From a virus (lineage: Duplodnaviria; Caudoviricetes), in IMG/VR virus record IMGVR_UViG_3300027711_000002, positions 1-56,152 of that record: DNA of 56,152 bases; one strand, written 5' to 3'. The notes beneath the pieces are model-generated. The model made no database searches. It was not told the DNA's origin and saw nothing but the letters and a program-made list of their open reading frames with translations. Of the stretch, positions 370 through 21,885 are shown piece after piece. Position numbers and translations under genes: made by a program. The first letter of the stretch is position 1, and each line of letters opens with the position of its first letter.

Positions 370-666
370 TCACGACTTCGGGACCTTGGCCCGGGTGTTC
401 TCGCTGGCCCACTGGTCCAGCGCCGGAAGCTGGCCGATGCTCCAGCCGTAGTTGGCGTACCCGTTGTCCTGACGAATCGTCACAGCGGGCTCGGGCATGG
501 GGTTGGCCGCTCCCTTGCCCGGCCCGTACCGCTTGATCCACGAGTGCACAGCCTGGCGTGTGCGTCCGTACCTCTTGGCCAGAGCACCGATGCCCAGGTA
601 CTCCTCGCCGTCCTTGACGACGAGTTCTGCCGCCTCCTCCATGTCCTGCTCCTGTCTCTCGCTCAC
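370..666 (-). CDS. HTH DNA-binding protein
   Basis: IGALAKRYGRTRQAVHSWIKRY is HTH-like. Confidence 0.65.
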   Translation of the reverse strand: MSERQEQDMEEAAELVVKDGEEYLGIGALAKRYGRTRQAVHSWIKRYGPGKGAANPMPEPAVTIRQDNGYANYGWSIGQLPALDQWASENTRAKVPKS

Positions 667-872
667 GCCACCACGTCCTTCTGCTGGTGCTTGTTCAGGA
701 GGTGCCTCACGTAGAGCAGGCAGGCCAGGTTGACGGCTGCTGCCGCGCCGTTGCGCAGCATGTCTCCCGTGTCCTCGCCCGCCGACATGATGGCCAGCCC
801 GGCGTTCAGGCTGCCGAAGCCCATGTTCATGAGCACGGTGAACACGAGCACGGGGTTGTACGGGGTCCTCAC
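663..872 (-). CDS. Small membrane protein
   Basis: Two hydrophobic segments; 4-nt overlaps with both neighbours. Confidence 0.7.
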   Translation of the reverse strand: MRTPYNPVLVFTVLMNMGFGSLNAGLAIMSAGEDTGDMLRNGAAAAVNLACLLYVRHLLNKHQQKDVVA

Positions 873-1234
873 TGCCCGTCCTCCTGCTTCTGCCCCGAGG
901 CGGAGCCGACGAACTTCGGCGTCTTCAGTGCCGACAGCGCCCGCATCTGCGCGCGGTTGTACTGCGTGATCAGCCCGGCGTTGACCACCTCCAGCACACG
1001 CAGCGCTTCCCGCGCCGTGTGGCCCAGGAACCCGTTACCTCCGGGCACCAGCCCCGTGTCTCCGTAACCACCGATCCCGTCCGTGGCGGTGTGCAGGCGG
1101 TAGGGGATGCCGTTCATCCGCTCGGCCTCGATCAACACCAGGACCTGATCATCTCGGAGCAGTCCCACCTTGCGCATGTTCTTGCTGACGTTCTCCGACA
1201 TCTGACGAACGTGCTTCACAGTAACCCGACTCAT
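869..1234 (-). CDS. Hypothetical protein
   Basis: ATG at 1234 after AGTGAGGAG; packed in the operon. Confidence 0.75.
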   Translation of the reverse strand: MSRVTVKHVRQMSENVSKNMRKVGLLRDDQVLVLIEAERMNGIPYRLHTATDGIGGYGDTGLVPGGNGFLGHTAREALRVLEVVNAGLITQYNRAQMRALSALKTPKFVGSASGQKQEDGQ

Positions 1235-1300
1235 GTTACATCTCCTCACTCTTCCTCGGGCTGAACACCCGATCGGACTTCTCGCTGAGCACAGCCCTCC

Positions 1301-1396
1301 TCAGATGCTGATGAACAGCCAGATGATGCCGATGGTCAGCAGAGCACCGGCGGCCACGCCCACGGCGACACCCGCAGCCGTGGCCAAGAACTGCAT
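1301..1396 (-). CDS. 31-aa single-TM peptide
   Basis: MQFLATAAGVAVGVAAGALLTIGIIWLFISI; below the ORF-track cutoff. Confidence 0.5.
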   Translation of the reverse strand: MQFLATAAGVAVGVAAGALLTIGIIWLFISI

Positions 1397-1425
1397 GAGC
1401 AGGCTACCGCCTGCTCTCCTGCGCC

Positions 1426-1866
1426 TCACCATCCCTGCCGCCCGATGGTGCCCTCGTGGCTCAGCTCGGACCGCTCGGTCTCCACCCAGAAGAAGGACTG
1501 TCCCTTCAGGGCGTAGGAGGCCGTGTGCTGGTGCTGCGTGGTCGTCAGGCTGTGGCGGAAGGGCGGCATGTGCACACCACCCGAGCCGTCCACCCAGGCG
1601 ATCACGGTGTTGTACGACTCCACGATGTAGGCCACGTGCAGGCGCTCCATCTGGTCCGACATCGTGTGGAAGTACTCGGCGGGCAGCGCACCCTCACGAC
1701 CTTCGGCCGTTCCGTAGTACCCAACCACCTCCAGCGGGCGGTATCCCCTCATGCTGTGCTTGATGTCCAGGTAGTCCCGGACGTACTTGCTAGCCCGGAC
1801 GCCGAAGTCCAGCCGGTCCTCGATGGCGCGGCCCGCGTCCTTCATACGGATGTTCTGGAGCTGCAT
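1426..1866 (-). CDS. Hypothetical protein
   Basis: Start MQLQ after GAGGAG; GC3-rich codons. Confidence 0.75.
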   Translation of the reverse strand: MQLQNIRMKDAGRAIEDRLDFGVRASKYVRDYLDIKHSMRGYRPLEVVGYYGTAEGREGALPAEYFHTMSDQMERLHVAYIVESYNTVIAWVDGSGGVHMPPFRHSLTTTQHQHTASYALKGQSFFWVETERSELSHEGTIGRQGW

Positions 1867-1868
1867 GG

Positions 1869-2063
1869 TTACTTCTCCTCGTAGTTCGCGGGTAGTTCGT
1901 AAGCCGCAGCCAGTTTTTGGATGTCCTTGAGGGGGATACCGATCATGTCTCCGCCTCGATCCGCCAGCCACCCCTTGTCCACCCAGGCGAAGCCGTTACT
2001 GTCAACGGCCCACATGTGGCCATTGACTTTGAGCCATTCCCATGTCACAGGCTGTCTCTTCAC
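1869..2063 (-). CDS. Hypothetical protein
   Basis: GTG start after GGAGGAG, overlapping the upstream stop. Confidence 0.65.
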   Translation of the reverse strand: MKRQPVTWEWLKVNGHMWAVDSNGFAWVDKGWLADRGGDMIGIPLKDIQKLAAAYELPANYEEK

Positions 2064-2269
2064 TTCTCCTCCCGCAGGTCCTTGACCTGCACGCTCTCGT
2101 AGTCCGAGTGGACGTCTTCGAACCCGTTCCGGCACGCCTTGGACAGGTGCTGTGCACAGGTGTACGTGCCCTTGAGTTCCTTGTCCCGGTTCACCCAGCG
2201 CACCCAGAACGTAGCCACGGCACTGCACGTGAACTCTGGGTAGTTGGACTGCTTCTGTCTGCAACGCAT
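2060..2269 (-). CDS. Small Cys-containing hypothetical protein
   Basis: MRCRQ start after GAGG; CxxH motif. Confidence 0.65.
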   Translation of the reverse strand: MRCRQKQSNYPEFTCSAVATFWVRWVNRDKELKGTYTCAQHLSKACRNGFEDVHSDYESVQVKDLREEK

Positions 2270-2429
2270 CGCTACCTCTTCACCGCTGGCTGATCCCAGC
2301 AGGCAGGCCACAGCCCGAAGGCTGCGGCCCACCCTCCCGGATCAGGTGTCGTCGTCCTGCGAGCACCAGCCCTGTGCCTGCTGGCGCTCCTCCTCGCTCG
2401 CCTCACTCACCCACTCGGGGCGCTCGTCT

Positions 2430-2660
2430 TCAGGTCCGAGCACTGGCGGTCACCTCCTTCCAGGTCTTGTGACGGCTCTCGGCCATCGCGATGAACTCGG
2501 CGGCCTCGGCTTGGCGGCCGAAGTCGTAGGCGTCCATCAGGATGGACACGGTCAGGCGGATGACGTCCCGGTCCTCGGGGTCCGCCTTGCCGTCGAACTC
2601 GTCCCGGATGATCTCCAGCAGCTCCCGAGCCAGGGGCTTCAGCTCCTCACGCCTGCTCAC
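2430..2660 (-). CDS. Hypothetical protein
   Basis: GTGA overlap with upstream gene; typical codon usage. Confidence 0.7.
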   Translation of the reverse strand: MSRREELKPLARELLEIIRDEFDGKADPEDRDVIRLTVSILMDAYDFGRQAEAAEFIAMAESRHKTWKEVTASART

Positions 2661-3028
2661 TTGAGCCCCCAGTCCCGCTTGTCCTCGGTGGCCCAGGCGA
2701 ACAGCGTCGCCAAGTTCACCGCGATCACGGGGAACTCGTTGATGTACAGCACGATGTGCTGCTCGTTGGCGAGCGACTGGTAGGCGTCGACCGACCTTCC
2801 CCAGAACCCGGCGTTGTCGAAGCTGCGGCCGAAGTGCAGGGCCGTCAGGTCCTGCTCGTCCGGCTCGTGCCAGTCCAGACGGGTGCCCACCTCGTTGGCG
2901 AAGTAGGCCAGCTCCTCGCGCTCGTCAACGCGGATGGGGTCCTCGAACCGGTACGACATGGGCTTGGCCACGCGGTCTCGGATGGCCTTCTGCTTGGCGG
3001 TACGCGGCTTGTTGTGGTCCTCGGTCAC
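2657..3028 (-). CDS. Hypothetical protein
   Basis: RBS-like AGTGAAGAG; typical codon usage. Confidence 0.75.
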   Translation of the reverse strand: MTEDHNKPRTAKQKAIRDRVAKPMSYRFEDPIRVDEREELAYFANEVGTRLDWHEPDEQDLTALHFGRSFDNAGFWGRSVDAYQSLANEQHIVLYINEFPVIAVNLATLFAWATEDKRDWGLK

Positions 3029-3081
3029 TTCTCTTCACTCCCTGTCCAGCCGCCCGGCCTGTCGCCGGGCGGCGCTCTCAC

Positions 3082-3399
3082 TCAGCGGGGGTTGTTCAAG
3101 CTCGCGCTCTTGATGTTGGCTGCCGCCTTCTTGGCCGCCTTCAGTGCTCCGTTGCGACTGGTGTAGGACTGGAAGCCGTCCAGCGTGGTGATGTCGCCGT
3201 CGTCCCAGGCCCGGCGGATGGTGTACCGGCGGACGTCACCCTCGCGCCGCTCGCTGGTCACGAAGAGCGCGCCGTCCTCCAGCGGGAAGACGTCCTGCAT
3301 GACCCGGCTCTTGAAGAACCGCATCGTGTCCGGGCTGAAGTAGTGCTGGCCGATCTTGGCGTTGGCGTCCTTGATGGCCTGGATGCTGAAGAGTGCCAC
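3082..3399 (-). CDS. Hypothetical phage protein
   Basis: HYFSPDTMRFFKSR segment recalled from small phage proteins; RBS GAGAGG. Confidence 0.75.
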   Translation of the reverse strand: MALFSIQAIKDANAKIGQHYFSPDTMRFFKSRVMQDVFPLEDGALFVTSERREGDVRRYTIRRAWDDGDITTLDGFQSYTSRNGALKAAKKAAANIKSASLNNPR

Positions 3400-3515
3400 G
3401 GTCTTACCCTCTCACTCGGAAGTAATGTCAGTCATGTTAGTGCTCGAAGTGAGCAGACGGTACACGGACGGGGTCAGGGTCCGTGTGCCATCCTCCTACT
3501 TCGCGCCCGGCTGGC

Positions 3516-3764
3516 TCAGCCGAGGTTGCGAACCTCGGGCTCCAGGTTCTCCACCTCGTCCGCCTCGTAGACGGACAGAGCCTCGTTGTAGCAAAGGTTC
3601 TTCGCTACGGTGTGCTCACCGGTCACGGTGTCCAGGTACGCCCCCGTGCCAGGCAGGATCTCCCCGACCTTGATGCCGGTCCGCGCCGTCAGCTCAGCCA
3701 GGTCCCGCAGGAACTCGGCCAGGTTGTCCCGCACCTCGGGCCGAAGGTTGTCGTGCTCACCCAT
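3516..3764 (-). CDS. Hypothetical protein
   Basis: MGEHDNL start after GAGGAGTGAG. Confidence 0.7.
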   Translation of the reverse strand: MGEHDNLRPEVRDNLAEFLRDLAELTARTGIKVGEILPGTGAYLDTVTGEHTVAKNLCYNEALSVYEADEVENLEPEVRNLG

Positions 3765-3802
3765 GCTCTCACTCCTCAATTGATGGTGTACTTCTTGGCT
3801 AC

Positions 3803-4039
3803 TCACTTGCGCACGCTCCAGCCCAGCGCCAGCAACAGCAGTCCCATTGCCAACACCGTGAACAGCAGCACCGGCCACGGCACCGTGATGATCAGGACCA
3901 CCAGCAGAGCCACGACGCACACCCAGAAGATCAGCAGCATGTTGCCCTCGGTGTGTGCTCCGTGCCTGCCCACGTGCTTCTGGAGGATGCGCAGCAGCTC
4001 GTGCCACCCCACACCCAGGATGTGGAGAACGCTCCGCAT
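3803..4039 (-). CDS. Membrane protein
   Basis: MRSVLH start after AAGGAGG; hydrophobic C-terminal half. Confidence 0.7.
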   Translation of the reverse strand: MRSVLHILGVGWHELLRILQKHVGRHGAHTEGNMLLIFWVCVVALLVVLIITVPWPVLLFTVLAMGLLLLALGWSVRK

Positions 4040-4218
4040 CGTCAGCCCTCCTTTCCGTAGCGCTGCCAGACCATGCCCACGTCCTCGACACGCTCGGGGG
4101 CCTTGTGCCAGTACATGTCGTAACCCATGCGTCACCTCTCGTCAAGCTGGCCGGTGTGCCAGCAGACAGCGCACACCCCAGCCCGAGCCGGGCGTGTGCG
4201 CCATCCCCCGTCACCGGA

Positions 4219-4464
4219 TCACTCGTCCTCGTCCTCCTCGAAGGGTCCCAGCCTCTCGTACTCCTCGCGGACGGCCGCCTCGGCGTCCTCCTCGTCGTCG
4301 TACGTGCCGAGCTGGTACTCCTTCAGCTCCTCGCGGTCACGGAAGGCGTAGGCGTACCAGAAGTCCCCGCAGTGGTCGCACTCCCCCTCTTCGATGTAGC
4401 CGATGACGATCTCGTCGTCACCGTCCGGAACCGTGATGTCGTTGGTGTCACCCGTTGCGCACAT
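4219..4464 (-). CDS. Acidic hypothetical protein with CxxC
   Basis: CDHC motif; AGTGAGGAG RBS. Confidence 0.7.
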   Translation of the reverse strand: MCATGDTNDITVPDGDDEIVIGYIEEGECDHCGDFWYAYAFRDREELKEYQLGTYDDEEDAEAAVREEYERLGPFEEDEDE

Positions 4465-4466
4465 GC

Positions 4467-4694
4467 TCAGCTCTTCTCCTCACTCAGCGGGACGGCCACC
4501 CACACACCGTCGTACTCGTCCCGCACCTTGAACCGCTCCCCGTCCACCAGGCGCATCCGCTGAACGAAGCGGAACGCCTGGTCACGGGTCAGGTCGTACA
4601 GCACACGCATGTCCGCGATGCCGCAGTTCAGGCCCAGCCACTCCGAGTTGTGGTTCTGTACCCACACTCCGTAGCGGCGCTCCTTCTCCGACAC
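4467..4694 (-). CDS. Hypothetical protein
   Basis: GTG start after GGAGG. Confidence 0.65.
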   Translation of the reverse strand: MSEKERRYGVWVQNHNSEWLGLNCGIADMRVLYDLTRDQAFRFVQRMRLVDGERFKVRDEYDGVWVAVPLSEEKS

Positions 4695-4695
4695 G

Positions 4696-4977
4696 TCAGT
4701 CCTCCATGTAGTAGGTCGTGTACCAGTGCTCCGGGATAAAGCTCCAGCCGTTCTCATGCTCGCAGTAGAGCACGGTCAGGCCAGCGTCACGGCCAAGCTC
4801 GGTAGGAAGCTCCAGCCCACAGCCAGAGTCGGTTTCACCCGCGAACTTGAGTCCCGCATAGGTGTACTCCGATGCGTAGGCCGTCCATTCACCGAAGGCA
4901 ACGAGTGCTCCGGTGATGCCGAAGGCCGACAGCACACCCACACCCGCACCGATCAGCAGCCCCTTGACCTTGTTCAT
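4696..4977 (-). CDS. Membrane-anchored hypothetical protein
   Basis: MNKVK start after GGAG; N-terminal TM segment. Confidence 0.7.
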   Translation of the reverse strand: MNKVKGLLIGAGVGVLSAFGITGALVAFGEWTAYASEYTYAGLKFAGETDSGCGLELPTELGRDAGLTVLYCEHENGWSFIPEHWYTTYYMED

Positions 4978-4978
4978 G

Positions 4979-5554
4979 TCACTCTCCGTCCTTGAATGCC
5001 TGCGGGTAGTTGTAACGCATGACGTCGTGGATCTCCTCGTCCTCCCACGGGTCCATGACCTCGGCCAGGATGGCGCCCACCTCAACCCAGACGACGAACT
5101 TCTCGTCAATGTCGGGGAACTCCACGGTCGCACGGCGCTTGACCGTGATGTCCACGACCACTCCGCCCTGCTCCGGAGCGTAGTCGTCCGCGTGCTTCCA
5201 AGTGATCTGGTGATCCTCCTTCAGCTTGGGCTTCTCCCCCTCCAGCAGGGGCAGACGTCCGTTCGAGTCCAGCCGAGCGATGACGGCCAGCTTGTCCGCC
5301 ACGTCCTGCTCACTCAGCCCGGGAAGGACGTCATCGGTCACAACGGTGCTGTAGCACAGCTCCCAGCCTCCGCCACGGTTGAACTTCAGGACAGCCAGCT
5401 CCCACAGATCTCCGCTGGGGATCACCGACGCACCGAAGTTGTTGGGGAAGCGGAACCGGTAGGCGTATCCGCTCCCGGTCCAGTGCGCCTCCTTGGTAAT
5501 CGGCGCGAAGTCCGTGGGGAACGGACTCGACAGCGCGTGCAGGTTCTCACCCAT
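4979..5554 (-). CDS. Hypothetical phage protein
   Basis: FRFPNNFGASVI...WELAVL segment; AGTGAGGAG RBS. Confidence 0.75.
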   Translation of the reverse strand: MGENLHALSSPFPTDFAPITKEAHWTGSGYAYRFRFPNNFGASVIPSGDLWELAVLKFNRGGGWELCYSTVVTDDVLPGLSEQDVADKLAVIARLDSNGRLPLLEGEKPKLKEDHQITWKHADDYAPEQGGVVVDITVKRRATVEFPDIDEKFVVWVEVGAILAEVMDPWEDEEIHDVMRYNYPQAFKDGE

Positions 5555-5637
5555 GGTGTATCTCTCCTCACTCACTGGCAGGGTGCCAGTATCGGGCGCA
5601 CGGGCCGGAGCCCGTGCACCCTCCTACCGTCTCCCTG

Positions 5638-6612
5638 CTACTCGTTGACCACGTACGTGTCCTTGAGCTTCATACGCTTGACCCACTCCCGACGATTGGC
5701 GAACCACTCGTAGTAGTAGCCGTCCGTCCAGCGGATGACGAGTCCATCCCCGTTCGAGGGGTCGAAGTCGTACATCTCCTGGCACGCCTCGTCCGCCTCC
5801 TCCCGCCGGATGCGGAAGTCCTCCCCGCAGGAGGGGCACAGCGGGTTGGGGTGCCTCTCGACTCCGTCAGCTTCTACGTCGAACCAGTCCCCGCAGTCGT
5901 TGCACTCCGAGTAGTCGTCCGACTCCTCCAAGTACTCCTGCGGGTCCTTGTTCCACCCGCACTCCGGGCACGTGCTGTCCAGCTCGCCCCGGAACTCCTG
6001 CTCCAGTACGTCAGCGTCGATGGACGAGTCCAGACGCGGAAGGGACTGGTGGAAGACCGCACGCCACATGTCGTCCATGATCTCGGACTCCGCCTCTTCG
6101 TTGAGGATGGGGTAGTCCGACAGCGCGCGCTCGATCGAGAGCACTTCCTTCTGAATGGCCACGGCTCCCAGGTCGTAGAGGTACACGTCTTCCGTGCCCT
6201 CGAACCAGCGTTCGCGGTCCTCACCTTCCTCCGCGCGGTAGTCGCGAAGGTCCGCCTCCTTCAAGGCAGCCTCAATGGCCTGGCCGTTGGACGCGAGGAT
6301 GGCCACCTCACACATGTGACCGTTGCCGACCGTGTGACGTCCGTAGTCGTCCGACGTCACGCCAGCGTGGAAGAGGGAACCGTCCGCGTTGGTGACGACA
6401 CCGATCCCGGTCCAGCCCTCCTCCTGCACGTGGTCGTACATCTCCTCGACCATGTTCCGGAAGTGCCAGTTGTCCATCACGAGCCGGTACAGCTCGTTCT
6501 GAAGCAGAACGGTGTCCCCGTCCGCGAACTGGTACTCCGTCACGTCCACCTCTCCGATGGCAGCGGCTTCACCGTGCTTGTCGAACCGGATTTCGTGCAT
6601 GATGCGCTCCAC
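5638..6612 (-). CDS. Acidic protein with three CxxC pairs (Zn-binding)
   Basis: CPEC, CNDC, CPSC; start uncertain (6600, 6612 or 6630). Confidence 0.75.
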   Translation of the reverse strand: MERIMHEIRFDKHGEAAAIGEVDVTEYQFADGDTVLLQNELYRLVMDNWHFRNMVEEMYDHVQEEGWTGIGVVTNADGSLFHAGVTSDDYGRHTVGNGHMCEVAILASNGQAIEAALKEADLRDYRAEEGEDRERWFEGTEDVYLYDLGAVAIQKEVLSIERALSDYPILNEEAESEIMDDMWRAVFHQSLPRLDSSIDADVLEQEFRGELDSTCPECGWNKDPQEYLEESDDYSECNDCGDWFDVEADGVERHPNPLCPSCGEDFRIRREEADEACQEMYDFDPSNGDGLVIRWTDGYYYEWFANRREWVKRMKLKDTYVVNE

Positions 6613-6683
6613 TTCTCTCACTGCTGACACACTGTGGTGTGCGCCAACACCGCCGGTCCCCCGCAGGGGACCGACAGAATCGG

Positions 6684-6911
6684 TTACACATCCTCCAGCA
6701 CCAGTCCGCTCCGCCGCAGACTGGCCTTCAGGTTCTTCAGGGTCCGCACATCCGAGAACGTCACCCCGCAGAACACGGGCGGTTTCGACTTGTCAGGCGG
6801 AAGGAACTTGACGTGACTCCTGCCGGTCTCCGTGACTTTCCACCCCTGAAGGCGGGCAGCACGCATGATCGGTCGGAGTTCCTTGTTAGACGATTGGTAC
6901 GTCTTACCCAC
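6684..6911 (-). CDS. HicA-like mRNA interferase-fold protein
   Basis: GWKVTETGRSHVKF pattern (GW...G.SH.K) and size match the HicA family. Confidence 0.65.
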   Translation of the reverse strand: MGKTYQSSNKELRPIMRAARLQGWKVTETGRSHVKFLPPDKSKPPVFCGVTFSDVRTLKNLKASLRRSGLVLEDV

Positions 6912-7167
6912 CCGTCACCACTTCCCTAAGAAAGTAGGTGCTCCTGGTCTGCCGGTTCGGTCCACACGAACACGGCGCGGTAGAGAACTCGAAGTACTCC
7001 ACCACCGCGCTCTGTCCGTCTTCAGCCACCGACACCACACGCCCGGCCACGTACTCCAGGTGCGTCCAGGTACGGCAGGATTCCCCGTTGGGCATGTGGA
7101 AGACGGGCTTCACCAGCACGTTCTGTCCAGCCTTCAGGGTCCTGTGCTTGGGCATAGGTCTCTCCAC
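6904..7167 (-). CDS. Hypothetical protein
   Basis: Operon packing; start may be the ATG at 7155. Confidence 0.6.
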   Translation of the reverse strand: MERPMPKHRTLKAGQNVLVKPVFHMPNGESCRTWTHLEYVAGRVVSVAEDGQSAVVEYFEFSTAPCSCGPNRQTRSTYFLREVVTGG

Positions 7168-7243
7168 TCACTCACTGACTGCGGTGTGCAGCCATGGCAG
7201 GGCACACCCCCGGTGTGGGGGTGTGCTCCACCACGTGCGCACA

Positions 7244-7693
7244 TCACACGATGGGACGGTACTCCCAGTCCTTACGGGAAATTTCACTCAGGTACACAGT
7301 CCGGACACGTCCACTGACGTCCTTGGCGCGAAGCCAGTTCGCCATACGGATACGGGCGTTGCGCACGAACTCCAGGGTCTCCCCGTTCTTGAGAACGACG
7401 ACCCGGACGCGCTTGACACGCACCTTCACCTCAAGGTCACCGAACACGACCATGGAAAACTGCTGGTTGTTGTCAGCCCACTTCTTGCCGTGTCCGAAGC
7501 CCTTGATCTCGACCTTGGCCGGAACGAGCTTGCCGTCCCGGGTCTCGACCTTGACAGTCCCGTCCGCCTCACGAACGGGCTCGACGCTGGTCACCTTCAG
7601 GAAGTCCGGGAGCTTCGCACCCGCCTTGAAGCGGGCAATGTTCCCGGGGCGCACCTGGTAGGCCAGAACTTCAGCAGTCTTAGGGGCAGCCAT
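7244..7693 (-). CDS. Basic hypothetical protein
   Basis: MAAPK start after GGAG; typical codon usage. Confidence 0.75.
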   Translation of the reverse strand: MAAPKTAEVLAYQVRPGNIARFKAGAKLPDFLKVTSVEPVREADGTVKVETRDGKLVPAKVEIKGFGHGKKWADNNQQFSMVVFGDLEVKVRVKRVRVVVLKNGETLEFVRNARIRMANWLRAKDVSGRVRTVYLSEISRKDWEYRPIV

Positions 7694-7789
7694 GGCATAT
7701 CTCCACTTCTCACGAGGTTCTGAAAGATGGCTCATTCAGGCCGTGGTCTCTCACACCACAACGACGCGCACACCGCGCGTTTCGCCTTG

Positions 7790-8281
7790 TTACTGGAACG
7801 AAGCGGTCAGGTTCTCGGTACGGATGACCGAGAACTGTCGCGTTCCGTTCTCGTGTTCTCCCCACCAGTAGGCCAGCTTGCGCACGACCTTGACCGGCTT
7901 GCCCCAACGGCGCACCTGCGCTTCGGCTCCACCGAAGCTGTGCGCGGTGGTGCACGGGCGGTCCTCCCAAGACAGCGTGTAACTGACCTTGAGTTCACCG
8001 GTCGTGGGGACCATGACGTACTGCTGCACGGTCACCGGAGTGTTCAGCATCTCCGTCTGAACACGGTCACCATGCCGCTGCGTACGGATGCGCACGGTCT
8101 GACCAGTGGCGGACTCGATACGGCTGGCCAGGGTTCGGGCGGCATCTCGCGCCGCTCCACCCATCCGCGAACCGATCGACCGATTGTCCAGGTCGGCACT
8201 GTGCCCGACGTACACCGTCGTGATGTCGGTGCTGGTCGGGATGATGTCAACCCACTTGATTCCGGACATGTCACGCTCCAC
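7790..8281 (-). CDS. Hypothetical protein, first gene downstream of the ncRNA locus
   Basis: AGTGAGAAG/GGAG upstream; start 8281 or 8269. Confidence 0.7.
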   Translation of the reverse strand: MERDMSGIKWVDIIPTSTDITTVYVGHSADLDNRSIGSRMGGAARDAARTLASRIESATGQTVRIRTQRHGDRVQTEMLNTPVTVQQYVMVPTTGELKVSYTLSWEDRPCTTAHSFGGAEAQVRRWGKPVKVVRKLAYWWGEHENGTRQFSVIRTENLTASFQ

Positions 8282-8288
8282 TTCTCAC

Positions 8289-8560
8289 TACGCACACACC
8301 GTGTGTGCGTACGGCTTGCGCCGTGGGAGGGCAGGGATTGCAAGAGGGAACCCGGTTGGTTCGGCCCTGCCCTCTCACGACGGGAGAGTGTCACACCAGC
8401 ACACACGCACTCAGTCCGAAGACCAGACTGTGTGTGCGCTGCACTCTCCGCGCCGTTCGCCCTACCGTGGAGTAGTAGGACTTCCGTCCCGCCCGGTAGC
8501 GCGCTGTGCATTCCGCTGTGCGGATCACCCAACGCGCTACCCGTTCACCTGTGAAGGTGT
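8289..8560 (-). ncRNA. Multi-hairpin structured block (3' part of the P1 transcript or a leader)
   Basis: Inverted repeats TACGCACACAC/GTGTGTGCGTA, CGTGGGAGGGCAGGG/CCCTGCCCTCTCACG, GGAGAGTG/CACTCTCC, GGTAGCGCG/CGCGCTACC. Confidence 0.55.
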
Positions 8561-8565
8561 GGCGG

Positions 8566-8582
8566 TAACAGCATTGACATTA
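8566..8582 (+). promoter_or_regulatory. 17-bp operator-like motif (related copies at 298, 3423, 11171, 20613, 51443)
   Basis: TAACAGCATTGACATTA; consensus of six copies approx. TAACAkSAnTGACATTA. Confidence 0.6.
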
Positions 8583-8586
8583 CGAT

Positions 8587-9084
8587 ATGTAGGCGAGTCG
8601 CTAACTCACGTGCGTTCAGTTCCGGAGTCGGATCGGGCCGAAGCCCTCCCCGCAATCCTCCCCACAATCGGAGCTAAACCCGACTGCGAAGCCTACAATT
8701 CGGTGTCTTTTGGGAATCCAGAGGTTACCTAAACCCCCGCCATTCACCTTAGTCCGAAACTGCGCACGATATCCAGGAATCAAAGTGGCCCACCATCCGG
8801 CCGCTAGCCCACAAGGGGAGTGAGTGCCCAAATACTCGCACAATGCGTCTGATATGACGTCCAAGACTTCTGGCTGTGATACTAGGCCCCGAACTAGCCG
8901 TTATTCACGGGATCAGGGATTCTTTGGGTTGGCACATTCCACTCGGCTCGTGTGTCCAGTGGCGGGTAACCGCCCGATATTACCGCCCGGGAAACCCCGA
9001 ACGTTTCGTTTTACTGGTCTTTACTGCCTTTGGGACAGTCCCGAAGAATACTTCGCTAGCGCCAATGCGCTTGTGCTTTCAATT
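8587..9084 (-). ncRNA. Putative 16S rRNA 3' major (head) domain mimic RNA
   Basis: Colinear 16S-like landmarks: AATTGA..GCACAAGCG, GCGAAG, ACGAGC..CAACCC, GACGTCATATCA, CCCCTTGTG, TGGGCCAC, AATGGC, ATTCCCAAAAG, CGAATTGTAGGC...GCGACTCGCCTACAT. Confidence 0.55.
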
Positions 9085-9170
9085 AGCACTCACTATGGAT
9101 TTTTCCCAACTGCCGAACCGTCATGTTCACTGGGAACCGGTCCGCTTGTTCAGTTGGTGTTGCGTGTCCC

Positions 9171-9199
9171 ACGTTATCGGCTAGTGCCGTATCTGTCAA
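9171..9199 (-). promoter_or_regulatory. sigma70/HrdB-type promoter P1
   Basis: TTGACA-17 nt-TAACGT; spacer contains ATACGGCACTAG. Confidence 0.85.
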
Positions 9200-9222
9200 C
9201 CCCTAGTTTCTAGCGGATTGTG

Positions 9223-9443
9223 TGCTGCCCTCTTGCGAAGCAAGAAGTAAGTGGACAGAGTCCACCCGTGTCCGGTCGCCCAATGGACCGTAATCCACTA
9301 AGCCGGATACCCGTCATAGCCTAGGTGCGCCATTACCACACCTACTAGCTGATAGGCCGCGTGCCGACACTTTCCACGTCGTACACACGTGTTACTCACC
9401 CAACGCCGCCAATCCACCCCTAAAGGCTTCCCGACGACTCGCA
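9223..9443 (-). ncRNA. Miniature 16S rRNA 5'-domain mimic (about h5-h7 and h11-h14)
   Basis: GAAGCCTTTAGGGGTGGATTGGCGGCGTTGGGTGAGTAACACGTG and GCGGCCTATCAGCTAGTAGGTGTGGTAATGGCGCACCTAGGCTATGACGGGTATCCGG...GGGCGACCGGACAC...GGCAGCA match actinobacterial 16S with compensatory stem changes. Confidence 0.88.
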
Positions 9444-9517
9444 CTTGCGAGACACGCTATTCAGGAGTCAAACACCGGGGCCGGAGCCCCGCCGTCGCCC
9501 GTTGGCGACTGATCAAC

Positions 9518-9546
9518 AACCTAGTGCCTAGTGCCGTATGTGTCAA
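9518..9546 (-). promoter_or_regulatory. sigma70/HrdB-type promoter P2
   Basis: TTGACA-17 nt-TAGGTT; same spacer motif. Confidence 0.85.
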
Positions 9547-9559
9547 CCCCGTTGTTTGT

Positions 9560-9820
9560 ACCGACTTGTGTAGCAACCCCGGACCGAACCGGTCGCCCGG
9601 TTTCACTTACCCATACGGGAGAGTGACCTAGGCCAGTAGCTACGCGATACGAACGGGAAGACACGGCAGGAACCGAGTCATGACCGGCCGCTGTAGGCCA
9701 GACATCCGAACGCGCTTGTCTCGCGTTGTAGGACACGCTGTGGAGTTTTCAAGCGGTAGGACTTGCGTCCCGTGGCCCCCCGCTGGGAGCCCCGCCGTTC
9801 GGCTGACTGCTCCGAACTGG
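9560..9820 (-). ncRNA. Putative structured ncRNA from P3
   Basis: No credible ORF; leader shared with the P2 unit, GNAA hairpin, boxA-like CTTGAAAACTCCACAGCGTGTC. Confidence 0.5.
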
Positions 9821-9825
9821 TCACC

Positions 9826-9854
9826 AACTTAGGTCCTAGTGCCGTATCCGTCAA
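9826..9854 (-). promoter_or_regulatory. sigma70/HrdB-type promoter P3
   Basis: TTGACG-17 nt-TAAGTT; same spacer motif. Confidence 0.85.
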
Positions 9855-10265
9855 CTCAACTGTGTACCGACTTTTGTTTGCCCTGGCCAAGTGCGGTAAA
9901 TCGAACACTGTTCGATCGGCCGGTAAGGGGTTGGGAGGGTCCGAGGTGGAGACCTCAGCCCGCGCGTATCGCGTGCGTGTGCGCACAGAGGTTCTAGAAC
10001 GCGCGTAGACGCCTCGGGAGGGGCGAACCGGGGAACGAGTCGGAGAAGACAACACAGCGGCGAGGAAGGCCAAGAGCCCGCGCGCGCGCAGGGTACGCGC
10101 ACACGCGCGCGGAATCGGTGCGCTCTGGGTTGTGCGAACTGGTGTTCGTTGGCGGTAATCGGACAAGAGAAGTCGGGGACGAGTGACGCATACGCACAGT
10201 GAGGGTCGCGGGGAGGGGGCGGGAAGTGGTGTTTGTGCAGGTGGGAGGGGGTGCGTAAGGGGGTG

Positions 10266-10922
10266 CGCAACCATACCGGCCACAAGTGGAAAGGTGGGAT
10301 GTATTGGTGTTTGCGCAGGTCAGAAGGGGTGAGTGGCCAGGATGGTTGTATTTTCGCTTGGTGGGTGGGTGTGAGTGATGGTGTGTGTGGAGAAACAGTA
10401 ACGACAGAAACATTTGACAGAAGTAAAGTTTACCGGGGCAAAGGTATATAGGCTGCCCCCTCGAAATCTCGCACTTTTACAACCAACCATGCCACACGCT
10501 CGCATTGGTGCAGGTGAAAGCATGTGGCCAGAATGGTTGCAACAACCAACCATGCCACAACCGGTGTGGCAGGTTTGGTTGCACCGGCGCGTTTGCGCAG
10601 GTCAGACTAGGTGGCAGGGTTGGTTGTATTTAGGTGACCCTTACTGGCAGGAATGGTTGCATGTGGCAGGCGTGGTTGTGGCCCATGCGTGAAAAGGCAC
10701 GGCTGTATTAAGAATGGTCACCGGCAGGTCTCTGCCTACTCCTATTCCGTGACCTAGCATTCTGATACAAGCCTGATGCCAGGCCGTGACCTTACACTGT
10801 ATGTGGCAGGAATCGTTGCATATTTTGGTGACTCTGAGTAATGGTTGACAGAATGGCGCAACCATGCCTGCCACAGCTAGGGGGTAGAGGGTGGCAGGAA
10901 TGGTTGTTTGTGCAGGTCAGAC
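10266..10922. repeat. Array of about 12 degenerate 18-mers (GTGGCAGGAATGGTTGCA) in both orientations plus TTTGYGCAGGTCAGA repeats; candidate ori or pac region
   Basis: Forward copies at 10333, 10524, 10566, 10611, 10644, 10663, 10803, 10891; inverted copies at 10266, 10478, 10541, 10857. Confidence 0.8.
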
Positions 10923-11170
10923 CATATGTATGGTAGATAACGAGTGAGAATGAAGTGAGAGTGTGGCGAGAGTGTGGCGCGTGGCGGTGTGCATGTGGCG
11001 GTGGCGAGGCTGAGAGCAGGGCGAATAAACCATTGAAGACAGGGGGTGACTAAACCAATACTGGCAGTAGGCCCTATAAAGTAGGGGAGGTGACCGCCCC
11101 ACGACCTCGCTCGACCCCACACGTCTGGCCCCATACGTCAAAAAATCTCGCGCCTCGCGCGCACGTGTGG

Positions 11171-11187
11171 TAATGTCAGTGCCATGA
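11171..11187 (+). promoter_or_regulatory. -10 box of a probable leaderless promoter overlapping a 17-bp operator
   Basis: TGG-TAATGT then 7 nt then ATG at 11184; no SD. Confidence 0.6.
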
Positions 11188-11411
11188 CAGACCCGATCCC
11201 TTCACCGATGAGCCGCCTGCGGGCCTACCGCAGAGCCCTCGGGATCTCCCAGCGCACGCTCGCGGAGCGCTCGGGGTACGCACGGGAGGAGGTCTGCCAG
11301 TGGGAGCTGGGCCGCAGGAGCATCAAGCTCCACCAGTTCGAGGACCTGCTCGGTGCACTGGGTGTGCGCATGGAGCTGGTCCCGCCCACGAGCAGTACCG
11401 ATGAGGAGTGA
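11184..11411 (+). CDS. XRE-family HTH regulator
   Basis: LRAYRRALGISQRTLAERSG...VCQWELG. Confidence 0.85.
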   Translation: MTDPIPSPMSRLRAYRRALGISQRTLAERSGYAREEVCQWELGRRSIKLHQFEDLLGALGVRMELVPPTSSTDEE

Positions 11412-15257: not shown

Positions 15258-18200
15258 GTGCAGGGAGAACTGGGAGTCGTACACGAGGCCGTGGCCTCTC
15301 TGCGCGTGGACGGCGTTCAGGACTCGTACCGGCTCAACCCTCCGGGCTGGGCCAAGGACGTGTTGGGTGTGCACCTGTGGTCGAAGCAGCGCGAGATCAC
15401 CGAGTCGGTGCGTGATCACAAGCGCACGGTGGTGGCGTCCTGCCACGGCTCGGGCAAGGCCCTGGCTCTGGACACGGAGCTGCCCACGCCCACGGGCTGG
15501 ACCACCATGGGCGAGGTGCAGCCGGGGGACGAGCTGATCGGGGTGGACGGCCGGGCGGCCAAGGTGGTGGCCGTCACCCCTGAGTGGGAGGTGGACACCT
15601 ACGAGGTCGTCTTCTCGGACGGCACCACCATTACCTGCTCGGGCGACCACGAGTGGAACACGCTGCCCGCCAAGGTGCGCAACCGTATCCGGGTACAGTG
15701 CCACCGCGATGACATGGCGGTGGACTGGTCGTTCTGGTGGCACTTGACCGAGACCTACACCACCGTCGAGCTGGCCGAAAGCCTGCGCACGAACACCTAC
15801 GAGCACAACCACGCGGTCCCGCTGCCCAGCGGCATCGAGGGCGTGGAGACGGCGTTCGTGGAGGCCCCCTACGAGATGGCCACACGCTACGGGCCGACCA
15901 ACATGGTGGGGGACAAGCTTCTGCGCTCGGCCAAGTGGCAGCGGTGGGAGTTCATCCAGGGCCTGGCCGACCGCCTCGCGCACGTGGACCGCACGGGGGC
16001 CGTAGTCTTCATGCTCACCGATCCGCTGGACGCCGAGCGCACGGTGGAGCTAGTGCGCGCCTCGGGCAAGGCCATGGTCACGCGCCGCTACGAGGACAAG
16101 TCCGGTAACTGGCGTGTGGTGGCTCGCATCGAGGAGTCGCCGTTCGCGCACAACGCCGACGAGGACGCGCGCTGGAGAGAGCGCAACCACGGCAAGCGGA
16201 CCTACAGCCGCAACACCGCGCGCATGATCGTGGACGTACGGCGTGTGCCCACGGTCAAGACGAAATGCGTCCAGGTGGACGCACCGCACAACCTGTATCT
16301 GGCCGGGCGCGAGATGGTGCCCACGCACAACTCCATGATCGCTTCGGTGATCTCGGCGTGGTTCGTGAGCGTCCACCCGCCCGGCCAGGCCATCGTCATC
16401 ACCACGGCTCCGACCTACCACCAGGTCAACGCCATCCTCTGGGAGGAGCTGCGCAAGCACCACCGGGCGGCCCAGGCAGCGGGCCTACCGCTGCCCGGCA
16501 AGATCACGCAGGACAACCAGTGGAAGCTCAGCGACGGCACGCTCATCGGCATGGGCCGCAAGCCCGCTGACGGCGACGCACACGCCTTCCAGGGCATCCA
16601 CCGGCCCTACGTCCTGGTCGTGATCGACGAGGCATGCCACGACGATCAGACGGACGTACTGACCGACCAGGGGTGGAAGCGCTTTGCTGACCTGGACGGT
16701 AGTGAGCGTCTACTGACGATGGACGCCCAAACCCATGAGGCGTACTACGACAAGCCCGTCAAGCTCGTGTCTAAGCCCTACAGCGGCCCTATGCACTACT
16801 ACAGCGCCAAGGGCCTGAACTACGCGGTGACGCCTGACCACACCATGCTCTACGGCCAGCGCAAGCACGGCAAGCCGTTGGACTGGAGGACGCAGGAGCG
16901 CCAGGAGATCGCCACCTGGAACAACAAGTTCGTGAAGAAGGTGATCGACTGGGGCCAGCCGGACGATGCTGAGCTGTCGGATGACTGGCTGACGTTCCTG
17001 GGCTGGTTCGGGTCGGAAGGGTCGATCAGCAAGGACCTGACGCGCGTGTGCATCACGCAGTCGGCCGAACGCGAGGCGTACCAGCGCATCTTCGAGCTGT
17101 GCGAGCGTCTGGGCTTCAATCCCAAGAAGCACGGTGACCACGTGCTGATCAACTCCACCAAGCTGGCTCGGGAGTTGGCGCAGTGGGGGCGCACACAGCT
17201 CGTGCGCCGTGTTCCCGACTTCGTGCGCAATGCGTCCGCGCGACAGATTGGGGTCTACCTGGACGCCTACGCCGAGGGCGACGGGTACTGGCACGGTACT
17301 CGTGAGGTGATCTATACCAGCTCTCCACAGATGGCTGACGACCTCCAGGAGCTAATCCTGAAGACGGGCATGCCTTCTGTCGTATCCAAGCGTGAGCTGG
17401 CGGGAAAGCAGACCACGTTCCCGGATGGGCACGTGGCTACGTCCTCTGTGGACGGGTACGTGGTGACGAGACCTTACCGGTCCTCCAACGCCAAGATGTA
17501 CAACGAGAATGAGCAGGTCAACCACTACGAGGGCATGGTCTACTGTGCGACGATGCCCAAGGATCACCTGCTGTTCACTCGCCGCAACGGGTACACCATG
17601 TGGTCAGGCAACTGCGGCGTGCCCGAGGAGCTGTGGACCGGCGTCGAGGCCATCACCACCACCGCCAACTCCCGCATCCTGGCCATCGGTAACCCCGACG
17701 ACCGGGACACGGAGTTCGGCCGGGTGTTCCTGGACGAGCGCTACGCCTCGATGTGGAACCGGATCTCGATCCCCGCCAGCGTCACGCCGAACTTCACCGG
17801 TGAACCCGTGCCCATGCCGCTGCCGGACGTGCTGGTGCAGCGGGACTGGGTGGACGAGCGTCGGCGGGCCTGGACCGAGGACGACCCGCGCTACATGTCC
17901 AAGGTCGAGGCGAAGTTCCCCGAGCAGGGTGTGATGAGTCTGTTCGGCCCGGCCGTCCTGGCACGCGGCTTCGACCAGGACAACCTCCCCAAGCCGGACG
18001 GCAAGCTCAAGATCGGCGTGGACCCGGCGCGCTTCGGTGACGACCGCACGACGGTGGTGGCCCGGCGCGGGCGGCTCATGTGGGTCGTGGACTCGTGGCA
18101 GGGCATGGACACCGTGCAGACCGCGCACAAGGTGATGAACCTTGCCGACGAGCTGCGCGAGGTGGACGACAACGGCAAGAAGGCCGAGTTCGACGTGGAG

Positions 18201-21790: not shown

Positions 21791-21863
21791 CTGCGTGTAG
21801 CTCAATGGGTAGAGCACCCGGTCTGGGACCGGGAGGTTGTTGGTTCAAGTCCAGCCAGGCAGG
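21791..21863 (+). tRNA. tRNA-Pro(UGG), atypical
   Basis: Cloverleaf: D arm GCTC/GAGC, anticodon stem CCCGG/CCGGG with loop TCTGGGA, T loop TTCAAGT; C33, G5:G68 mismatch, G73, no encoded CCA. Confidence 0.85.
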
Positions 21864-21885
21864 CACATTACGGATGAGGGGGAAG

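What the first reader, a model, noticed from the sequence alone, without database searches (positions are those of the whole stretch)
9223..9443. Miniaturised 16S rRNA 5' domain with compensatory changes
The - strand reads TGCGAGTCGTCGGGAAGCCTTTAGGGGTGGATTGGCGGCGTTGGGTGAGTAACACGTG (cf. Streptomyces-type TGCAAGTCGAACGATGAAGCCCTTCGGGGTGGATTAGTGGCGAACGGGTGAGTAACACGTG). A short hairpin replaces h8-h10, followed by h11-h14 ending GGCAGCA. Pairing is kept by double changes: h7 CGTGGGC/GCCCGCG to CGTGTGT/GCACGCG, h11 TTGGTG/CACCAA to TAGGTG/CACCTA, h12 GCCGG/CCGGC to TCCGG/CCGGA with an inserted hairpin. h13 and h14 are replaced by new stems (GGGTGGAC/GTCCACTT, CTTCTTG/CAAGAGG). This points to selection on fold rather than a decaying rDNA fragment. 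The retained helices are where uS17 and bS20 bind, and the h6 sequence hints at a Streptomyces-like host.
Basis: partly seen in the sequence, partly recalled or inferred. Interest (0 to 1): 0.95.

Follow-up and report, generated by a model that had tools for sequence, protein, structure and literature searches.

The report
Phage mini-16S RNA behind rRNA-style leader
A soil phage of actinobacteria carries a cut-down, carefully folded copy of one corner of the host's small ribosomal RNA, placed behind a copy of the signal that cells use when transcribing their ribosomal RNA genes, so the phage seems to imitate the start of a ribosomal RNA operon.

Summary
Window 9443-9223 (- strand) matches Rfam bacterial 16S positions 56-353 (64.1 bits, E 6.6e-16), with 13 nt in place of h8-h10.

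It is not a decaying scrap.
- Ten distinct phage or metagenome versions keep the h7/h11/h12 three-way junction: 90.4% of cells paired, 18 of 36 pairs changed on both sides, 0 of 500 shuffles as good.
- The nearest relative (L017) keeps 11 changed pairs and breaks 4.

Only that junction is shared. L017 has lost h6 and h13/h14. In one RNA-library variant, 89 other letters replace the whole element.

The element lies between promoter-like repeats, directly behind a copy of the actinobacterial rrn leader motif (boxA/boxC, "CL2"). Six of 13 lineages have this motif upstream at 7 or fewer mismatches of 23, against 11 of 3900 shuffles. A Yersinia phage pairs an enterobacterial-type boxA with an h11/h12 copy.

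Best reading: a structured RNA in an rrn-like early leader that probably binds host uS17. Binding and expression are untested. The Streptomyces-host hint is unresolved.

This scan had already found h11 mimics on other phage DNA. Nine paper searches found no description.

The parts
9819..9854 (-). Promoter-like repeat P1 (TTGACG, 17 nt, TAAGTT), first of three leftward copies
   Evidence: Repeat family D3; coordinates. Calling it a promoter rests on a recalled Streptomyces-type consensus. The E. coli-type scan found none.
9731..9753 (-). rrn-leader-like boxA/boxC motif of unit A (CTTGAAAACTCCACAGCGTGTCC)
   Evidence: 4 mismatches of 23 to the Streptomyces rrn leader 23-mer of L039. 0 of 3900 shuffles reach 4 or fewer.
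9511..9546 (-). Promoter-like repeat P2 (-35 TTGACA 9546-9541, -10 TAGGTT 9523-9518) upstream of the mimic
   Evidence: Both hexamers are kept in relative L017 (TAAGTT there) while the 3' half of the spacer between them differs.
9477..9509 (-). Two leader hairpins (9509-9494 and 9490-9477); the second sits just before boxA, where boxB lies in rrn leaders
   Evidence: Predicted in the fold; conserved in L017. The boxB analogy is inference.
9451..9476 (-). rrn-leader-like boxA/boxC motif of unit B (GGTGTTTGACTCCTGAATAGCGTGTC), 8 nt before the mimic
   Evidence: It is a gapped likeness to the Arthrobacter and Streptomyces leaders read, and is nearly identical in L017, L028 and L031. The gap-free 23-mer test does not score it: relatives L036/L017, which carry only this version, score 9 mismatches.
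9223..9443 (-). The 16S 5'-domain mimic, long form (h5-closed; h6, h7 stub, h11, h12 with insert, h13, h14)
   Evidence: Rfam 64.1 bits, model 56-353; fold.
9404..9438 (-). h6-like hairpin, present only in this lineage
   Evidence: Deleted in L017 and cut to a stub in L030.
9268..9399 (-). Conserved core: closing 3-bp helix (GUG 9399-9397 with CAC 9270-9268), AGUAAC, h7 stub 9390-9357, h11 9356-9310, h12 with inserted hairpin 9307-9271
   Evidence: Covariation; own covariance model R1 scores 110.2 bits; 80% identical to L017 with no gaps.
9229..9267 (-). Remodelled h13 (8 bp, 9267-9249) and h14 (8 bp with UUCG loop, 9247-9229)
   Evidence: Absent from L017. The h13 stem with its T-rich tail also scores as terminator-like.
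9164..9199 (-). Promoter-like repeat P3, starting 23 nt after the mimic's end
   Evidence: 98% identical to L017 over 9199-9150.
9139..9157 (-). Weak boxA/boxC-like stretch of unit C (CCAACTGAACAAGCGGACC)
   Evidence: Seen by eye only; not significant on its own.

Best explanation
The element is a functional, structured phage RNA that descends from the 5' domain of a bacterial 16S rRNA and has been trimmed. The selected core is the h7/h11/h12 three-way junction.

It lies in a roughly 1.6-kb untranslated region at the head of the leftward (replication-gene) operon. That region is built like the start of an rRNA operon: three promoter-like repeats, each followed by a hairpin and a copy of the host-type rrn leader motif (boxA/boxC).

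Proposed mechanism:
1. Host RNA polymerase starts at these promoters.
2. The boxA-like RNA recruits the host rrn antitermination factors (NusB/NusE and partners).
3. The mini-16S junction folds as it is transcribed and binds the primary 5'-domain protein uS17. The long form may also bind neighbouring 5'-domain proteins.
4. The long untranslated early transcript is then handled like nascent pre-rRNA, resistant to Rho and to nucleases. The RNP may also take uS17 away from host ribosome assembly.

Shown: 16S descent, conservation of the fold by compensatory change, restriction to phage DNA, and association with the rrn leader motif.

Inferred: transcription from these promoters, Nus-factor recruitment, uS17 binding, and the effect on the transcript.
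For: - Homology to 16S: 64.1 bits, E 6.6e-16.
- Fold kept across 10 distinct sequences: 90.4% of 353 cells paired, against 36-48% when partners are slid; 18 of 36 pairs changed on both sides; 0 of 500 shuffles as good on all five measures. The structure tested was the Rfam 16S consensus, not one derived from these sequences.
- The closing helix varies as GUG/CAC, GGG/CCC, GCG/CGC, CGG/CCG, ACG/CGU and CAG/CUG in phage copies. It is GTG/CAC in all 3 real actinobacterial 16S genes.
- Against the closest relative, 49 comparable pairs: 34 unchanged, 11 changed but kept (8 on both sides), 4 broken. Substitutions fall at 23 of 94 paired and 3 of 36 unpaired core positions.
- Phage-only distribution under the strict mini-pattern: 4 of 4 viral-contig hits are mimics; 0 of 7 hits in 185,579 species genomes are, all 7 lying inside real rRNA genes; 8 of 20 metagenome hits are mimics and 12 are real rRNA genes.
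- rrn leader motif: real leaders were read from Streptomyces, Arthrobacter and Nonomuraea records. The 23-mer lies upstream of the mimic at 4 mismatches in the window, 2 in L030, 1 in L007, 6 in L038, 7 in Stella and 7 in L045. Of 3900 shuffles, 11 reach 7 or fewer and 0 reach 4 or fewer.
- A Yersinia phage has a terminator, a promoter, an enterobacterial-type boxA (1 mismatch of 12), then an h11/h12 copy, then the ribosome-binding site of the next gene.
- A boxA antiterminator behind early promoters is in print for T7 (passage read in PMC3709561).
- The window encodes no S17, S20 or S16 homologue, so any such partner would be the host's.
Against: - No RNA evidence for the mimic itself. RNA-library contigs cover its flanks in variant strains but not 9220-9446, and such libraries can contain DNA.
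- In one variant the whole element is replaced by 89 letters that I could not read, so it may be dispensable or swappable.
- There is no clear terminator or processing site. P3 follows after 23 nt, so I cannot tell whether the RNA is a free small RNA or part of a long leader.
- The leader motif was not found upstream of Omar, L020 (only 294 nt available) or the Shewanella phage. For L036, L006 and L046 the likeness is gapped and fails the substitution-only test at 9-11 mismatches.
- uS17 is not a known member of rrn antitermination complexes. One review of extraribosomal r-protein functions mentions it only as a primary assembly protein (passages read).
- Part of the covariation among distant copies could have been inherited from different donor 16S genes rather than arising in phages.
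- The promoter calls rest on a recalled consensus, and the E. coli-type scan found none.
Confidence: 0.45

Rival explanations
1. Free decoy. The element is released as a stable small RNA that soaks up newly made uS17, and perhaps bS16 or bS20, early in infection. This blocks host 30S assembly and frees resources for the phage.
For: - It has its own promoter-like repeat and stable terminal hairpins, and the h13 stem with its T-rich tail scores as terminator-like.
- Two independent long forms keep a complete h5-closed subdomain with lengthened h14 stems.
- The element behaves as a discrete cassette whose borders coincide with variant breakpoints at 9219/9447 and 9213.
- Earlier notes of this scan report an h11 copy inside a phage tRNA cluster (e1-5759068, not checked here).
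Against: - Free r-protein pools are small and ribosomes are long-lived, so the benefit within one lytic cycle is unclear (inference).
- The h6 and h13/h14 parts are lost in close relatives.
- The recurring position directly behind boxA-like leaders and just before ribosome-binding sites points to action in cis.
- No expression data.
Confidence: 0.22
2. Sensor leader. Like the rRNA-mimicking leaders of ribosomal-protein operons, the element binds a free host ribosomal protein and so couples early phage gene expression to the host's ribosome-synthesis state.
For: - In the Yersinia and Shewanella phages the h11/h12 copy ends about 15-25 nt and about 50 nt before the next gene's start codon.
- rRNA mimicry as a regulatory principle is established (a review seen only as a reference-list entry).
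Against: - In the window the mimic is about 950 nt from the first gene, and another promoter lies in between.
- No alternative pairing between the mimic and a ribosome-binding site was seen.
- No r-protein gene is regulated here.
Confidence: 0.15
3. Hitch-hiking remnant. The phage captured the 5' end of an rrn operon for its boxA antiterminator, and the 16S piece is neutral DNA that is slowly being deleted.
For: - Close relatives show stepwise shortening: 221 nt, 132 nt, and 89 unread letters.
- Leader motif and 16S piece stand in the same order as in a real operon.
Against: - Compensatory changes keep the junction.
- Loops and internal loops change less than stems: 3 of 36 against 23 of 94 positions.
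- The h1-h6 and h8-h10 parts were removed while h7/h11/h12 stayed in every lineage.
- h11/h12 copies also occur where no leader motif was found.
Confidence: 0.1
4. Artefact: host 16S contamination or a chimeric assembly, or a protein-coding region that resembles 16S by chance.
For: Public phage collections do contain real 16S contaminants; many hits were such records. Short ORFs overlap the element (9298-9444 on the - strand, 48 aa).
Against: - The same element stands in the same place in independent assemblies and in 14 runs that each hold half or more of the words sampled from window 8300-9900, and in sequenced isolates.
- Identity to real 16S is only about 80-87% over 60-100 nt, and there are internal deletions.
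- No overlapping ORF passes the codon-position GC test.
Confidence: 0.01

Closest known systems
16S rRNA 5' domain, helices h7/h11/h12 (with h5, h6, h13, h14), the region that binds primary assembly protein uS17
   Same: Significant covariance-model match to positions 56-353. h11 is nearly identical in sequence, and the helices have the same order and junction topology.
   Different: 221 nt instead of about 300. h8-h10 are replaced by 13 nt, h12 carries an 18-nt hairpin, and h13/h14 are remodelled. It stands alone in a phage with no rest of the 16S, no 23S and no 5S. That uS17 binds h7/h11 is recalled knowledge, not a call.
The h11 / h11-h12 mimic module noted earlier in this scan in unrelated phages (e1-3496127, e1-147087, e1-5759068), with no description found in print
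   Same: Same conserved h11 core next to an h12-like hairpin, closed by a stem, in non-coding phage DNA. I confirmed such copies in a Yersinia and a Shewanella phage (R1 scores 52.7 and 49.4 bits).
   Different: This is the largest version seen here, with h5, h6, the h7 stub, h13 and h14 added. It is tied to an actinobacterial rrn leader motif.
rrn-type boxA antitermination leaders used by phages
   Same: Promoter-like repeats, each followed by a hairpin and a host-type rrn leader motif, ahead of a long untranslated early region. T7's boxA behind its early promoters is in print (passage in PMC3709561).
   Different: Here the motif is the actinobacterial boxA/boxC ('CL2') type, named in PMC10218544 (passages read). 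It is followed by a piece of 16S itself, which is not reported for T7 or lambda. I recall the lambda nut sites; I did not read about them here.
rRNA-mimicking leaders of ribosomal-protein operons (for example the uS8 site in the spc operon)
   Same: An RNA outside the ribosome that copies an r-protein binding site on rRNA (uS8 passage read in PMC10931766).
   Different: Those leaders regulate the binding protein's own operon and usually mimic shape rather than copy sequence. Here there is no r-protein gene, and the RNA is a true homologue of 16S. I found no uS17-binding leader in the survey of ribosomal leaders (PMC7247131: 0 occurrences of S17 or rpsQ).

Membership tests
Bacterial 16S rRNA gene (Rfam RF00177) | Covariance-model score at or above the gathering score | tested here: met
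   64.1 bits against a cut-off of 50
Bacterial 16S rRNA gene (Rfam RF00177) | Full length, about 1500 nt covering model positions 1-1533 | tested here: not met
   Only positions 56-353 are matched, with h8-h10 missing. No other SSU match at E up to 5 in 8200-11300.
Bacterial 16S rRNA gene (Rfam RF00177) | Part of an rrn operon with 23S and 5S genes | tested here: not met
   The whole 56-kb record gives only this match and one tRNA at gathering scores.
Phage h7/h11/h12 16S-mimic module (provisional family of this scan, not in print) | h11 close to the 16S consensus, followed by an h12-like hairpin, both closed by a stem | tested here: met
   model R1 scores 110.2 bits.
Phage h7/h11/h12 16S-mimic module (provisional family of this scan, not in print) | Pairing kept by compensatory change among members | tested here: met
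   90.4% paired, 18 of 36 pairs changed on both sides, 0 of 500 shuffles as good.
Phage h7/h11/h12 16S-mimic module (provisional family of this scan, not in print) | Found in phage DNA, outside rRNA genes | tested here: met
   The window is a virus record with terminal repeats, a portal and a terminase. All 7 genome-collection hits of the mini-pattern lie in real rRNA genes.
rrn-type antitermination leader (boxA/boxC) | Sequence match to the host-clade rrn leader motif | tested here: met
   Unit A has 4 mismatches of 23 to the Streptomyces leader; 0 of 3900 shuffles reach that. Unit B is a gapped version.
rrn-type antitermination leader (boxA/boxC) | Lies on the transcript, downstream of a promoter | tested here: inconclusive
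   Three conserved TTGAC(A/G)-N17-TA(G/A)(G/C)(G/T)T repeats lie upstream, but the generic scan calls no promoter and no transcript start is mapped.
rrn-type antitermination leader (boxA/boxC) | Binds NusB/NusE and makes RNA polymerase resistant to termination | not testable with these tools
   Needs biochemistry or genetics.
Autoregulatory rRNA-mimic leader of a ribosomal-protein operon | Stands upstream of the gene of the protein it binds | tested here: not met
   No S17, S20 or S16 homologue in the record. The downstream genes have no r-protein family match.

The most novel reading that the evidence does not exclude
Phages of distant hosts build miniature pre-rRNA units: a host-type boxA plus the 16S h11 junction. 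On this reading the nascent uS17-h11 particle is itself a working part of rRNA-style processive antitermination or of RNA protection. It would follow that early 30S assembly on the nascent 5' domain feeds back on the transcribing polymerase in bacteria generally, and that phages have distilled the minimal signal for this.
Probability: 0.12. Interest if true: 0.9.

Novelty: new variant of a known kind. Interest (0 to 1): 0.74.

Why it matters
Phages are known to borrow tRNAs, a few ribosomal proteins and the boxA antitermination signal. In nine literature searches I found no report of a phage-encoded, structurally maintained piece of 16S rRNA.

This window holds the largest version seen here. 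It ties that piece to an rRNA-operon-style leader in actinophages, and a Yersinia phage shows a parallel arrangement.

If the RNA binds uS17, there are two possible gains. It would be a new way for a virus to tap or disturb ribosome biogenesis. It would also be a natural minimal uS17-binding RNA, about 105-130 nt, for studying the first steps of 30S assembly and their link to rRNA transcription.

If it turns out to be only a leader structure, it still marks an unannotated class of early regulatory regions. In the public records of Stella and of the Yersinia phage, annotated protein genes overlap it.

Tried and rejected
**Other rRNA-like units in the window.** An Rfam search of 8200-11300 at E up to 5 gave only the 9223-9443 match plus two chance-level hits. 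blastn-short against three full actinobacterial rrn loci gave only scattered 9-14-nt matches in no order, apart from the leader motif. I reject both for lack of support.

**Bacterial copies.** The strict mini-pattern found 7 places in the species-genome collection, all inside real rRNA genes. A pattern this strict can miss diverged copies.

**Looser patterns in viral contigs.** One search gave no new locus. One search gave 7 new loci; model R1 matched 2 of them (L045, L046) and not the other 5.

**Host from h6.** Identity to the three references is too even to decide.

**Expression.** Of 4 RNA-library runs laid, none covers 9220-9446. X15 bridges it with 89 other letters, X17 diverges at 9213, and X16 and X18 cover only the flanks. 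This is neither evidence for nor against transcription of the mimic.

**Phage-encoded partner.** There are no S17, S20 or S16 genes. The ten nearest leftward genes match no RNA-binding family.

**DNA-level role.** I considered homology for recombination with host rrn and rejected it by inference: the matches are only 60-100 nt at about 80-87% identity.

**Literature.** Nine searches found nothing on phage-encoded 16S fragments or mimics. Supplements were closed, so supplementary motif lists, for example those of PMC10690425, could hold it unseen. That paper states that no rRNA prediction overlapped its candidates (passage read).

Full report
**What the window is.** The window is a complete IMG/VR virus record of 56,152 bp with direct terminal repeats. 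It encodes a tailed phage.
- Terminase, portal and head genes lie on the + strand from about 11.2 to 43 kb.
- DNA polymerase, primase and helicase lie on the - strand from 43 to 56 kb.
- A run of small - strand genes occupies 370-8281.
- No ORF between 8282 and 11183 passes a codon-position GC test, and GC drops to 0.59 there.
- The portal is about 40% identical to portals of Arthrobacter, Streptomyces and Microbacterium phages, so the host is an actinobacterium of unresolved genus.

**The observation.** Rfam's bacterial 16S model matches 9443-9223 on the - strand at 64.1 bits, E 6.6e-16, model positions 56-353.
- The alignment shows h5, h6 and GUGAGUAAC.
- The h7 stem has 13 nt standing in for the 100 model positions of h8-h10.
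- h11 is nearly intact, h12 has an 18-nt insert, h13 is shortened, and h14 is lengthened with a UUCG loop.
All are correct.
- The 221 nt fold on their own into just this set of helices: -94.2 kcal/mol, z -3.1.

**Relatives.** Shorter versions of 105-132 nt, covering model positions 106-311 (h7 stub, h11, h12), occur in:
- Streptomyces phage Stella, 85.4 bits
- Streptomyces phage Omar, 68.4 bits
- viral contigs L006 and L007, 71 bits each
- metagenome contigs L020, L038 and L036
- L045 and L046

A second long form, closed by h5 and holding h13 and h14 but only a stub of h6, is in L030 at 103-109 bits. L031 is 94% identical to the window over 8.4 kb and carries the same 221 nt with a few changes. 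A Yersinia phage and a Shewanella phage carry h11/h12 copies below Rfam's cut-off, at 47 and 41 bits; my own model scores them at 52.7 and 49.4 bits.

The strict mini-pattern gave these hits:

| Collection | Hits | Mimics | In real rRNA genes |
|---|---|---|---|
| Viral contigs | 4 | 4 | 0 |
| Species genomes (185,579) | 7 | 0 | 7 |
| Metagenome contigs | 20 | 8 | 12 |

**Is the fold selected?** I aligned 10 distinct sequences with MAFFT and laid the Rfam 16S consensus pairs on them.
- 90.4% of 353 cells are standard pairs, against 36-48% when partners are slid by 1-3 columns.
- 18 of 36 pairs show changes on both sides.
- No shuffle of 500 reaches the observed value on any measure.
- The 3-bp closing helix is GTG/CAC in all three real actinobacterial 16S genes, but varies through six complementary combinations in the phage copies. 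At least that covariation therefore arose in phages.

Against the closest relative (L017, whose neighbouring gene is 75% identical in protein), 49 pairs can be compared. Of these, 34 are unchanged, 11 are changed but kept (8 on both sides), and 4 are broken. Substitutions hit 23 of 94 paired positions and only 3 of 36 unpaired ones. That pattern is expected if loops make specific contacts.

**What is and is not conserved.** L017 has the same promoter, leader and following promoter, but lacks h6 (36 nt) and h13/h14 (43 nt). The core 9399-9270 is 80% identical to L017 without a single gap. In an RNA-library contig of a further variant, 9220-9446 is replaced by 89 letters that the tool did not print, and another contig diverges at 9213. 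The element is therefore a discrete cassette of variable size. The selected unit is the three-way junction, not the whole "miniaturised 5' domain".

**Context.** Three 40-nt repeats on the - strand read as TTGAC(A/G), 17 nt, then TAAGTT, TAGGTT or TAACGT. Their -35 hexamers are at 9854, 9546 and 9199. The mimic lies between the second and third repeat.

Directly before the mimic stands GGTGTTTGACTCCTGAATAGCGTGTC. Behind the first repeat stands CTTGAAAACTCCACAGCGTGTCC. I fetched real rrn leaders from Streptomyces, Arthrobacter and Nonomuraea records. About 200 nt before the 16S they carry CTTGAGAACTCAACAGCGTGCCA or close variants. This is the conserved leader motif that a mycobacterial study calls CL2 and a putative BoxA (PMC10218544, passages read).

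Mismatches (of 23) of the best copy of the Streptomyces 23-mer upstream of each mimic:

| Lineage | Mismatches |
|---|---|
| L007 | 1 |
| L030 | 2 |
| Window | 4 |
| L038 | 6 |
| Stella | 7 |
| L045 | 7 |
| Other seven lineages | 9-12 |

Of 3900 shuffled upstream regions, 11 reach 7 or fewer mismatches and none reaches 4. L036, L006 and L046 show gapped or partial versions by eye. Omar, L020 and the Shewanella phage show none.

The Yersinia phage has, in order: a terminator, a TTGACG-N17-TATAGT promoter, GCTCATTAACAA (1 mismatch to the enterobacterial boxA as I recall it), the h11/h12 copy closed by a 14-bp stem, and then GGAGG and an ATG. The boxA type thus follows the host, while h11 stays the same.

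**Mechanism.** The layout copies the start of an rRNA operon. A boxA antiterminator behind early promoters is in print for T7 (PMC3709561, passage read).

My best reading, at 0.45, has three steps. The boxA-like RNA recruits the host's rrn antitermination factors. The junction folds co-transcriptionally and binds host uS17. The long untranslated early transcript is then treated like pre-rRNA. That uS17 binds h7/h11 is recalled textbook knowledge, and no tool here can test RNA-protein binding.

The rivals are:
- a free uS17 decoy (0.22)
- an r-protein-sensing leader (0.15)
- a neutral remnant of a captured rrn 5' end (0.10)
- an artefact (0.01)

No S17, S20 or S16 gene is present in the phage.

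**Weak points.**
- Transcription of the mimic is not shown.
- Promoters are called from a recalled consensus, and the generic scan finds none.
- No clear 3' end exists.
- The leader motif is missing in 3 of 13 lineages and weak in 3 more.
- Some covariation among distant copies may come from different donor rRNAs.

**Novelty.** Nine literature searches found no phage-encoded 16S fragment or mimic. Supplements were closed.

Earlier notes of this scan describe h11 mimics in other phages (e1-3496127, e1-147087, e1-5759068) and boxA-headed leaders in coliphages (e1-137988).

So the scan has seen this kind of element before on other DNA. This window adds the largest form, the cassette behaviour, and a statistically supported link between the mimic and the rrn leader motif.

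Noticed in passing
window 10260-10930: At least 13 copies, in both orientations, of an 18-nt motif (TGGCAGGAATGGTTGCA type), interleaved with GTTTGCGCAGGTCAGA repeats, in the ORF-free strand-switch region. It looks like an iteron or operator array, possibly an origin.
   Followed up: no
window 8301-8406 (- strand): A long imperfect hairpin of about 106 nt just upstream of the first leftward gene (ATG near 8269). RNA-library run X17 has short contigs of high word depth (97-344) over 8371-8620.
   Followed up: partly
window 9220-9446, variants in runs X15 and X17: In related strains the mimic is swapped. One contig replaces it with 89 unread letters and another diverges at 9213. The breakpoints coincide with the mimic's borders.
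   Followed up: partly
Rfam at E up to 5 and blastn-short against three real rrn loci give no support.
   Followed up: yes
window about 7705-7770 (- strand); L031 4457-4522: Relative L031 has a type II hammerhead ribozyme (40 bits) between the first two leftward genes. The homologous window stretch reads CTGAATGAG where L031 has CTGATGAG, and it did not reach Rfam's cut-off. Phage Omar has nine such hammerheads between its early genes.
   Followed up: partly
window 15258-18689 (+): The terminase large-subunit ORF is 1143 aa. Its terminase matches are split (residues 42-135 and 788-1109) around a middle part that hits unrelated families. This suggests an intein or an inserted domain.
   Followed up: no
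window 21791-21864 (+): tRNA-Pro (TGG) lies inside the longest portal ORF call. The true portal start is probably downstream, since the family match begins at residue 107.
   Followed up: no
L001 1551-1844 (Stella gene 90) and L005 1148-1810 (Yersinia phage gene 026): Annotated hypothetical-protein genes overlap the RNA element: on the opposite strand in Stella, and with a start far upstream of a good GGAGG-ATG in the Yersinia phage. These are probably mis-annotations.
   Followed up: partly
L007 437-691, L030 8100-7894 (- strand), window 9730-9560 (- strand): Between the rrn-leader motif and the mimic (or the next promoter) lie 170-280 nt of non-coding, hairpin-rich sequence with no Rfam match in the window. 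These may be further RNA cargo of the same units.
   Followed up: no
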